NCBI RefSeq assembly: GCF_009914755.1
Contig: NC_060936.1
Strand: one strand, 5' to 3'
DNA from: the human T2T-CHM13v2.0 reference genome, Homo sapiens
DNA: 64,000 bases
Below the pieces are notes generated by a model. That model made no database searches. It was not told the DNA's origin and was given only the letters and a program-made list of their open reading frames with translations. Shown here in pieces: positions 1 through 44,379 of the stretch. A program made the translations under genes and the position numbers. How positions within the stretch are numbered: position 1 is the stretch's first letter; each line of letters opens with the position of its first letter.

Positions 1-44379
<44,379 letters not shown>

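What the first reader, a model, noticed from the sequence alone, without database searches (positions are those of the whole stretch)
3711..3726. Precise deletion of a whole exon, leaving a zero-length exon (AG|GT)
Seen: units 2 and 4 read cattag|33-nt exon|gtaaa (8418, 18072; unit 3 similar at 13251). Unit 1 reads ttcattag|gtaaat, with exactly 33 nt removed. The acceptor, with a ~340-nt pyrimidine tract, is now fused directly to the donor. Established: this is the architecture of a recursive splice site. Inference: an AGG-microhomology deletion created a candidate recursive site from a coding exon.
Basis: partly seen in the sequence, partly recalled or inferred. Interest (0 to 1): 0.7.

Follow-up and report, generated by a model that had tools for sequence, protein, structure and literature searches.

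The report
Exact exon deletion scar in MUC19
One repeat unit of the human mucin gene MUC19 has lost a small 33-base exon so exactly that the splice signals on either side now touch; this is a tidy evolutionary scar that could act as a two-step splice site, but nothing shows that it does or that it matters.

Summary
At window 3718|3719 the sequence reads ttcattAG|GTAAAT. Five of six closely related ~4.7-kb MUC19 repeat units carry a 33-nt exon between the same flanks. Only this unit lacks it, by exactly 33 nt, and the gap can be placed anywhere across a shared AGG.

More distant units also carry a homologous exon, so this is a loss, not a gain elsewhere. The annotated reading frame stays open across 2936>3980; 11 codons are lost.

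Both splice-signal halves look intact:
- A 337-nt, 95% pyrimidine tract lies upstream.
- The acceptor scores within the range of its working paralogs.
- Joining to exon 2883-2936 would regenerate CAG|GTAAAT, a 9-mer used at three annotated donors.

So the site has recursive-site architecture. However, the host intron is only 1,043 nt, and the only downstream donor that could define an "RS-exon" (3773) is weak. Use cannot be tested with these tools.

The AGG microhomology is generic: 41 of 64 exons here have at least 3 nt.

Best reading: a neutral, in-frame exon-loss scar, with two-step splicing possible but unproven. Interest is modest.

The parts
2883..2936 (+). Upstream annotated exon (54 nt), ending ...CAG, followed by donor GTGAAG. 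It supplies the CAG that would rebuild a donor at 3719 after a first splicing step.
   Evidence: Hub annotation. Donor PWM score 11.8, 59th percentile of 63 annotated donors.
3376..3712 (+). Expanded, degenerate CT-rich tract in front of the orphan acceptor (337 nt, 95% pyrimidine).
   Evidence: composition; AG-free zone of 356 nt back to the AG at 3361. (TRF: degenerate TCC/TTCCTC periodicity). (longest uninterrupted pyrimidine run 51 nt). The homologous tracts are 38-63 nt in four units and 254 nt in unit 3.
3669..3673 (+). Candidate branch point CTTAT (A at 3672, 46 nt before the acceptor G). Candidate only.
   Evidence: yUnAy scan inside the AG-free zone. The ancestral A-rich block just upstream of the tract (about 3359-3375) is an alternative, distant branch region.
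3711..3718 (+). Orphan acceptor ttcattAG. Its last 10 nt are identical to those of the working acceptors of units 2 and 4.
   Evidence: PWM 13.8 (55th percentile of 64 annotated acceptors; 98.8th percentile of 2,899 AG sites; best AG in the intron). With the three paralogs left out of training it scores 11.1, against 10.3-12.0 for the paralog acceptors.
3717..3719 (+). Deletion scar: the single surviving AGG of the two that flanked the 33-nt exon. The junction is 3718|3719.
   Evidence: 33-column gap that can slide across AGG; the precise deletion is reachable through a 3-nt repeat in units 2, 3 and 4, but not through one of 4 nt or more.
3719..3724 (+). Orphan donor GTAAAT. In the genome it reads TAG|GTAAAT; after ligation to exon 2883-2936 it would read CAG|GTAAAT.
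   Evidence: genomic context 7.7 (8th percentile), regenerated 11.7 (56th percentile). The same 9-mer is the annotated donor after 12552, 18104 and 19723.
3719..3772 (+). Hypothetical 54-nt 'RS-exon' or poison exon that would result if acceptor 3719 were paired with the GT at 3773. It carries an in-frame TAA at 3751-3753.
   Evidence: conceptual translation in the gene's phase hits a stop at the 12th codon. Not annotated; hypothetical.
3773..3778 (+). Weak donor-like site CAG|GTATAT. The GT is present only in unit 1, of the 5 units that can be aligned here.
   Evidence: score 6.3, 5th percentile; 5.9; 3 of 60 annotated donors score lower; alignment of Um2, Um1, U1, U2, U4.
3980..4027 (+). Next annotated exon, 48 nt instead of the 54 nt of its paralogs. 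Its acceptor is weaker by PWM than the orphan acceptor.
   Evidence: Acceptor score 7.4 (17th percentile) or 8.1 (20th percentile).
8418..8450 (+). Paralogous 33-nt exon of unit 2 (comparator; encodes 11 residues).
   Evidence: Hub annotation.
13251..13283 (+). Paralogous 33-nt exon of unit 3 (comparator). It is kept despite a 254-nt pyrimidine tract.
18072..18104 (+). Paralogous 33-nt exon of unit 4 (comparator). Unit 4 is the nearest relative of unit 1 on the tree and has the same donor 9-mer.

Best explanation
This is the scar of a germline deletion that removed exactly one 33-bp repeat exon from one unit of the C-terminal repeat array of MUC19. The exon encoded 11 residues of a Gly/Thr/Ser/Pro-rich repeat.

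Shown: the ancestor of unit 1 had the exon, the loss is exactly 33 bp, the flanks are colinear, and the frame is preserved.

Inferred: the break was resolved through the AGG that every such exon carries at both ends (…AG|G at the acceptor, …AG|G at the donor), by replication slippage or microhomology-mediated end joining. The loss was tolerated because all exons of this array are symmetric (phase 1-1), and one 11-residue stretch of a huge mucin is dispensable.

Inferred consequence: a 1,043-nt intron (2937-3979) now holds, in its interior, an acceptor with an expanded pyrimidine tract fused to a donor.

My commitment on how it works today: most transcripts remove the intron in a way that leaves the annotated 2936>3980 junction. 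A minority probably go in two steps (2936>3719, then the rebuilt CAG|GTAAAT>3980), which gives the same mRNA. I see no evidence of a selected function.
For: Exactness and colinearity.

Loss, not gain:
- A blastn search of 146 kb of the gene found the exon with its flanks in 5 of 6 close units (window -5860, -1220, 8418, 13251, 18072). A 48-nt relative sits in a more distant unit at 19676.
- Unit 1 groups with exon-bearing unit 4 (support 96/95).

Frame: the annotated CDS within the window, from exon 802, reads open in one phase with only the terminal stop.

Low constraint on this part of the array:
- The next exon of the same unit has slid its acceptor by 6 nt.
- Unit Um2 has lost the AG in front of its copy.
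- Unit 3 lacks the two following exon classes.

Intact signals: acceptor and regenerated donor scores fall within the range of the working paralogs.

Published analogy: splice-site AG|GT microhomology has been proposed to cause precise intron deletion (Farlow 2011, PMC3020277, passages).
Against: - The precise deletion is only one of 79-131 possible deletions with at least 3 nt of microhomology that would touch the exon. The mechanism therefore does not explain the exactness, and chance or selection must be invoked.
- The orphan acceptor scores higher than the annotated acceptor at 3980 (13.8 against 7.4). Bypass of the site is therefore not assured, and the two-step route could be the major one.
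- Only one assembly was examined.
- The RefSeq mRNA is known to disagree with GRCh38 by 487 bases somewhere in the gene (PMC5009343, passage). The absence of an annotated exon here is therefore not independent proof that other assemblies lack it.
- No RNA data were available.
Confidence: 0.7

Rival explanations
1. Same origin, but the fused site is a working recursive splice site (zero-length exon) through which a large share of MUC19 pre-mRNAs pass. Exon 2883-2936 is first joined to 3719, rebuilding CAG|GTAAAT, which is then spliced to 3980.
For: YAG|GT motif with a very long pyrimidine tract. The acceptor is the best-scoring AG in the intron and beats the annotated acceptor. The regenerated donor is identical to three annotated donors and equals the original donor in score (11.7 against 11.8). 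There is a branch-point candidate at -46. A unit-1-specific GT 54 nt downstream could close an RS-exon with an in-frame stop, as in the vertebrate model (Blazquez 2018, PMC6224609, passages). A zero-length exon is reported for a rat tropomyosin intron (as described in Shepard 2009, PMC2773006, passage). Recursive sites are reported over a wider range of intron sizes than first thought (Hoppe 2023, PMC10156609, abstract and passages). Stochastic use of acceptor-like intronic sites has been proposed (Kelly 2015, PMC4482092, passage).
Against: The intron is only 1,043 nt. The RS-exon donor is weak (5th percentile). The exonic sequence that may have helped recognise a 33-nt exon is gone. There are no RNA data. 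MUC19 is absent from the recursive-site supplements that could be searched: 0 occurrences in all 4 held files of Hoppe 2023 and in 12 of 15 files of Zhang 2018. This is expected for a gland-specific gene, so it is weak evidence.
Confidence: 0.25
2. The fused site acts mainly as a decoy or poison-exon switch. Acceptor 3719 pairs with the GT at 3773, including a 54-nt exon with an in-frame stop; or it engages the splice sites unproductively and promotes intron retention. Either would lower MUC19 output.
For: Strong acceptor. A unit-1-specific CAG|GTATAT lies 54 nt downstream. There is an in-frame TAA at 3751-3753. The decoy-exon concept is in print (PMC7373989, abstract in the listing).
Against: The donor at 3773 is much weaker than the regenerated donor at 3719 (6.3 against 11.7), which in the published competition model favours skipping. 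No such exon is annotated. No RNA data were available.
Confidence: 0.06
3. Assembly artefact: the 33 bp exist in the donor genome but were dropped next to a low-complexity tract.
For: The site abuts a 337-nt simple-sequence-like tract, and only one assembly was seen.
Against: The junction is clean, with unique sequence on the downstream side and 10 nt of conserved acceptor on the upstream side. The annotated transcript has no exon here (hub table). A collapse would more likely change the repeat tract than excise an adjacent unique 33-mer.
Confidence: 0.03
4. Unit 1 shows the ancestral state, and the 33-nt exon was inserted in the other units.
For: None beyond formal possibility.
Against: The exon is present in 5 of 6 close units and, in extended form, in more distant units (19676; similar exon starts at 20855 and 23330). 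Unit 1 is nested with unit 4. An insertion of homologous coding sequence exactly between an existing AG and GT is implausible.
Confidence: 0.01

Closest known systems
Recursive splice sites / ratcheting points (Drosophila Ubx and others; vertebrate RS sites with RS-exons)
   Same: An acceptor with a pyrimidine tract is fused to a donor (YAG|GT). Ligation to the upstream exon rebuilds a full donor. A possible downstream donor would close a stop-containing RS-exon (model as described in PMC6224609, and PMC5126111).
   Different: The host intron is 1,043 nt, not tens to hundreds of kb. The RS-exon donor is weak. There is no evidence of use or of conservation. The origin is the deletion of a coding exon; I found no such origin in print.
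Zero-length exon of the rat tropomyosin pseudo-exon (Grellscheid and Smith 2006)
   Same: A vertebrate intron holds an acceptor directly followed by a donor, and the same acceptor can also give a stop-containing alternative exon. This is known to me only through the description in PMC2773006 and the mention in PMC4482092.
   Different: The original paper was not held, so details could not be compared. That case was shown experimentally; this one is sequence only.
Precise intron deletion through splice-site AG|GT microhomology (Farlow et al. 2011 hypothesis)
   Same: The consensus shared by acceptor and donor junctions provides the short direct repeat, and one copy is left at the scar (PMC3020277).
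   Different: Here the mirror image applies: the exon between two introns is removed, not the intron between two exons. The repeat is only 3 nt and not distinctive.
Evolutionary exon loss by inactivating a splice site (e.g. Drosophila bruno-3 exon 6)
   Same: An exon disappears from the mRNA within a lineage (PMC2767349, passages). Unit Um2 of MUC19 may be an example of this commoner route.
   Different: In those cases the exon body stays behind and decays. Here the body is gone and both splice sites stay.

Membership tests
Recursive splice site / zero-length exon | Acceptor AG directly followed by donor GT (YAG|GTRAGT-like) | tested here: met
   TAG|GTAAAT at 3716-3724. It is one of 2 of 293 + strand AGGT sites with both halves at or above the 25th percentile of annotated sites.
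Recursive splice site / zero-length exon | Pyrimidine tract and usable branch point upstream | tested here: inconclusive
   Tract of 337 nt, 95% pyrimidine, with an AG-free zone of 356 nt. The branch point is only a motif candidate (CTTAT, A3672). No branch-point model or data were available.
Recursive splice site / zero-length exon | A full 5' splice site is rebuilt after ligation to the upstream exon | tested here: met
   CAG|GTAAAT scores 11.7 (56th percentile) and is identical to the annotated donors after 12552, 18104 and 19723. It scores 11.3 (48th percentile) with the paralogs left out of training. This is in silico only.
Recursive splice site / zero-length exon | Vertebrate model: an RS-exon closed by a downstream 5' splice site, usually carrying a stop | tested here: inconclusive
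   The only plausible GT in 3719-3979 is at 3773 (54 nt downstream; score 6.3, 5th percentile; 3 of 60 annotated donors are lower). The 54-nt stretch has an in-frame TAA.
Recursive splice site / zero-length exon | Located in a long intron (classical definition) | tested here: not met
   The intron 2937-3979 is 1,043 nt (hub table). Hoppe 2023 reports a wider size range, so this weakens the case but does not exclude it.
Recursive splice site / zero-length exon | Observed use: intermediate junction reads, lariats, sawtooth read density | not testable with these tools
   No RNA data. MUC19 is not in the searched supplements of two recursive-site surveys.
Recursive splice site / zero-length exon | Conservation of the AG|GT across species | not testable with these tools
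   No non-human vertebrate genomes are held; only the window's own genome could be searched.
Evolutionary exon loss by genomic deletion | Exon present at the homologous place in relatives, with colinear flanks on both sides of the gap | tested here: met
   Paralogs only: 5 of 6 close units keep it; the alignment has one 33-column gap; the flanks are 75-79% identical.
Evolutionary exon loss by genomic deletion | Ancestral presence shown in orthologs | not testable with these tools
   No primate or other mammalian assemblies were available.
Microhomology-mediated deletion (slippage or end joining) | Short direct repeat at both breakpoints, with one copy retained | tested here: met
   AGG occurs at both exon junctions in units 2, 3 and 4, and one AGG is left in unit 1.
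Microhomology-mediated deletion (slippage or end joining) | The repeat is longer or more specific than the background would give | tested here: not met
   41 of 64 annotated internal exons have at least 3 nt of junction identity. 79-131 alternative deletions with at least 3 nt of microhomology would touch the exon. No repeat of 4 nt or more yields the precise product.

The most novel reading that the evidence does not exclude
Precise excision of a coding exon converted it into a working zero-length exon. MUC19 pre-mRNA now routinely splices this short intron in two steps through 3719, with the unit-1-specific donor at 3773 providing RS-exon definition and an NMD-coupled escape route. That would be a documented birth of a vertebrate recursive splice site from a dying exon, with exon-bearing paralogous units in the same transcript as internal controls.
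Probability: 0.12. Interest if true: 0.6.

Novelty: new member of a known kind. Interest (0 to 1): 0.35.

Why it matters
If the site is used, it would be a natural experiment on two open points. One is whether a vertebrate spliceosome will use a fused acceptor/donor in a short intron without a well-defined RS-exon. The other is whether recursive sites can arise as leftovers of lost exons. The same pre-mRNA carries three exon-bearing paralogous copies within this window (two more lie just upstream), and one of them (unit 4) has the identical donor 9-mer. Comparisons are therefore built in.

If it is not used, which I think more likely for most transcripts, it is one more example of in-frame exon turnover in a repetitive mucin domain and has no known consequence.

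Tried and rejected
1. H-DNA or triplex-driven breakage by the neighbouring purine/pyrimidine tract as the cause of the deletion. H-DNA instability is in print (abstracts of PMC3905860 and PMC11667243 in the listing). However, the unit 1 tract is degenerate: its longest uninterrupted pyrimidine run is 51 nt and its perfect mirror arms are only 10 nt. Unit 3 has a 218-nt uninterrupted run with mirror arms above 40 nt and has kept its exon. I dropped this as an argument.

2. Dating the deletion from one genome. The unit 1 terminal branch is 0.15 substitutions per site, and unit 1 is 74-78% identical to the other units. By recalled mammalian neutral rates, unit 1 has been separate for very roughly 10^8 years. 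The deletion may have happened at any time since. The 16 signal positions (10 acceptor, 6 donor) carry no unit-1-specific change, which has a probability of about 0.09 under neutrality by my own arithmetic. That is too weak to argue for recency or for constraint.

3. Genome search with the junction region. Apart from the site itself, all 37 other matches were CT-rich simple sequence on other chromosomes, which is uninformative.

4. Literature.
- No paper holds both 'MUC19' and 'recursive splicing'.
- Searches for recursive sites arising from lost or former exons found nothing to the point.
- The fungal stwintron paper (PMC6616335) describes exon loss by fusion of introns with the exon sequence kept as intron, which is a different thing.
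- Sibley 2015 and Grellscheid and Smith 2006 are not held. What I say of them comes from other papers' descriptions.

6. Using the RefSeq model as independent confirmation of the deletion. I rejected this as unsafe because NM_173600.2 differs from GRCh38 by 487 bases at unstated places.

Full report
**Observation**

The window reads ...ttttttttttcattAG|GTAAATatgg... with the junction between G3718 and G3719. The annotated exons 8418-8450 and 18072-18104 are flanked by cattag and gtaaa, and 13251-13283 by tattag and gtagat.

A MAFFT alignment of the four units shows one gap of exactly 33 columns in unit 1, with alignable sequence on both sides. The aligner placed the gap after CATT rather than after CATTAG, because AGG occurs at both ends of the missing piece.

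Blastn of 2701-4300 against the first 26 kb gives colinear matches on both sides of the gap:
- To unit 2: 2735-3431 with 7719-8409 at 76%; 3717-4291 with 8449-9036 at 78%.
- To unit 4: 2735-3413 with 17365-18034 at 75%; 3717-4176 with 18103-18561 at 79%.

The pyrimidine tract is 337 nt (3376-3712) at 95% pyrimidine, and the nearest upstream AG is at 3361.

**Direction of the change**

The window's own genome is searchable, so I fetched the 100 kb upstream of the window. I then ran blastn with unit 4's exon plus flank against 146 kb of the gene. Seven places match:
- Six close units at window -5860, -1220, 3717, 8408, 13241 and 18062.
- One distant relative at 19669.

Five of the six close units contain the 33 nt. 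In unit 1 the match begins only at the last two bases of the exon. More distant units also have a homologous but longer exon behind a similar acceptor (19676-19723, 48 nt; similar exon starts at 20855 and 23330).

I built a maximum-likelihood tree of the six units from about 650 columns covering the upstream exon and intron. It puts unit 1 with exon-bearing unit 4 (support 96/95) and gives unit 1 a terminal branch of 0.15 substitutions per site. Pairwise identities of unit 1 to the others are 74-78%.

The exon is therefore ancestral and unit 1 lost it. The units are old, so the loss cannot be dated from this genome.

**Coding consequence**

All exons of the array are multiples of three and lie between phase-1 introns. 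The annotated CDS in the window is open in one phase with only its terminal stop. Unit 1 therefore lacks the 11 residues that the paralogs encode (for example [11 protein letters not shown] in unit 4) and is otherwise in frame.

The neighbouring exon of the same unit is also altered. The ancestral acceptor ...ctAG|GCACAG reads ...ctATGCACAG| in unit 1, and the annotated exon starts 6 nt later (3980, 48 nt instead of 54).

Other signs of exon-level turnover nearby:
- Unit Um2 has catgtg instead of cattag in front of its copy of the 33-nt exon.
- Unit 3 lacks the two exon classes that follow in units 1, 2 and 4, and carries a 1.8-kb interspersed repeat 13 nt after the donor.

This part of the protein tolerates in-frame gain and loss.

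**Anatomy of the fused site**

I built position weight matrices from the window's own annotated sites (63 GT donors, 64 AG acceptors).
- The orphan acceptor scores 13.8. That is the 55th percentile of annotated acceptors and the 98.8th percentile of all 2,899 AG sites in the gene part of the window. It is the best AG in the intron and is above the annotated acceptor at 3980 (7.4, 17th percentile).
- In its genomic context the donor reads TAG|GTAAAT (7.7, 8th percentile).
- After ligation to exon 2883-2936 it would read CAG|GTAAAT (11.7, 56th percentile). That equals the original donor CAG|GTGAAG (11.8) and is identical to the annotated donors after 12552, 18104 and 19723.

With the three paralogous exons removed from training, the orphan acceptor scores 11.1, against 10.3-12.0 for the paralog acceptors. 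The regenerated donor scores 11.3, the same as unit 4.

A yUnAy match (CTTAT, A3672) lies 46 nt before the AG. Unit 3, which has a 254-nt tract and an annotated exon, has a comparable match at -31.

Within 3719-3979 the only other donor-like GT is at 3773 (CAG|GTATAT; 6.3, 5th percentile). It is exactly 54 nt downstream, and the stretch would carry an in-frame TAA. That GT is present only in unit 1, of the five units alignable there.

In sequence terms this is what the literature calls a recursive splice site with a cryptic RS-exon (PMC6224609, passages; PMC5126111, passages). However, the closing donor is weak and the host intron is 1,043 nt.

**How unusual is it**

Of 293 AGGT on the + strand, two have both halves at or above the 25th percentile of annotated sites: 3719, and the start of annotated exon 43429-43537. 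The minus strand, as a control, gives 1 of 234.

A fused site of this quality is thus roughly a once-per-window event and would be common genome-wide. What is unusual is the origin, which the paralogs document.

**Mechanism of the loss**

The two AGG triplets are the natural consequence of ...AG|G at the acceptor and ...AG|G(T) at the donor. 41 of 64 annotated internal exons here have at least 3 nt of identity across their junctions.

I used units 2, 3 and 4 as stand-ins for the ancestor.
- There are 79, 131 and 87 distinct deletion products of 5-150 nt, each with at least 3 nt of microhomology, that would touch the exon.
- The precise one is a single member of each set.
- No repeat of 4 nt or more produces it.

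Microhomology-mediated deletion is therefore compatible and is my preferred mechanism, by analogy with the published proposal for precise intron deletion (PMC3020277, passages). It does not by itself explain the exactness, so chance plus tolerance of in-frame changes must carry the rest. The idea that the neighbouring tract promoted breakage as H-DNA is not supported by the comparison with unit 3.

**Use as a splice site**

Nothing here can test it.

For use:
- Both halves are as good as working paralogs.
- The acceptor beats the annotated one.
- The rebuilt donor is as good as the original.
- Intronic acceptor-like sites are reported to be used stochastically (PMC4482092, passage).
- A zero-length exon is reported in a rat tropomyosin intron (as described in PMC2773006).

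Against use:
- The intron is short.
- The RS-exon donor is weak.
- The exon body that may have carried enhancers is gone.
- The real next exon has a good donor for exon definition.

MUC19 does not occur in the held supplements of two recursive-site surveys: 0 occurrences in all 4 held files and in 12 of 15 files. Those surveys used tissues and cell lines in which this gene is probably silent (my recollection), so this says little.

I put about 0.25 on substantial two-step splicing and more on trace use. Either way the mRNA is the same.

**Limits**

- Only one assembly and one species were examined.
- There were no RNA data.
- The scoring matrices were trained on only about 60 sites from the same gene.
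- The annotation upstream of the window was not available, so the status of the copies at -5860 and -1220 is read from sequence only.
- The RefSeq mRNA differs from GRCh38 by 487 bases at places I could not see (PMC5009343), so the transcript model is not independent confirmation.
- Three supplementary files of Zhang 2018 were not searched.

**Verdict**

This is a real, exact, in-frame exon deletion in one MUC19 repeat unit. It leaves a fused acceptor/donor with recursive-site architecture. It is most likely a neutral scar, and its use in splicing is plausible but unproven. It is a new example of known kinds of things (exon loss; zero-length exon candidates) with an origin I did not find described. 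Interest is modest.

Noticed in passing
window 3970-3979: The exon after the scar is 48 nt instead of 54. The ancestral acceptor ctAG (as in units 2 and 4) reads ctAT in unit 1, and the annotated exon starts at the next AG, 6 nt downstream. This is a second in-frame change in the same unit.
   Followed up: partly
L018:4134-4172 (window about -5866 to -5828): The copy of the 33-nt exon in the unit two places upstream is preceded by catgtg instead of cattag, so the homologous AG is gone. An AG three bases into the exon could give a 30-nt in-frame exon. The annotation for this stretch was not available.
   Followed up: partly
L018:8774-8812 (window about -1226 to -1188): The copy in the unit just upstream is preceded by cagtag, a tandem acceptor three bases apart that would add or drop one codon.
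   Followed up: no
window 43425-43434: Annotated exon 43429-43537 begins GTAAGA right after ttAG. It is the only other + strand AGGT in the window whose acceptor and donor halves both score like real sites. It fits the published notion of an annotated exon with a donor-like start.
   Followed up: no
window 18604-18605 and 39244-39245: Two annotated splice sites are non-canonical: the donor after 18603 is GG and the acceptor before 39246 is GG. This may reflect how the transcript model was laid on this assembly, or real oddities of a gene flagged gene/pseudogene.
   Followed up: no
window 13297-15120: A 1.8-kb interspersed repeat sits 13 nt after the donor of exon 13251-13283. The genome search gave 24,672 first-look candidates. 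The 39 scored copies elsewhere are 90-94% identical and share the 3' end with varied 5' truncation. I infer a LINE-1 3' fragment. Unit 3 also lacks the two exon classes that follow the 33-nt exon in units 1, 2 and 4.
   Followed up: partly
window 13001-13218: Unit 3 has an uninterrupted 218-nt pyrimidine run with long perfect mirror repeats directly in front of an annotated 33-nt exon. This implies either a very distant branch point or one at the lone A13219.
   Followed up: no
paper PMC5009343: The RefSeq mRNA NM_173600.2 is listed as having 487 bases not found in GRCh38. Where they lie is not stated in the passage seen.
   Followed up: no
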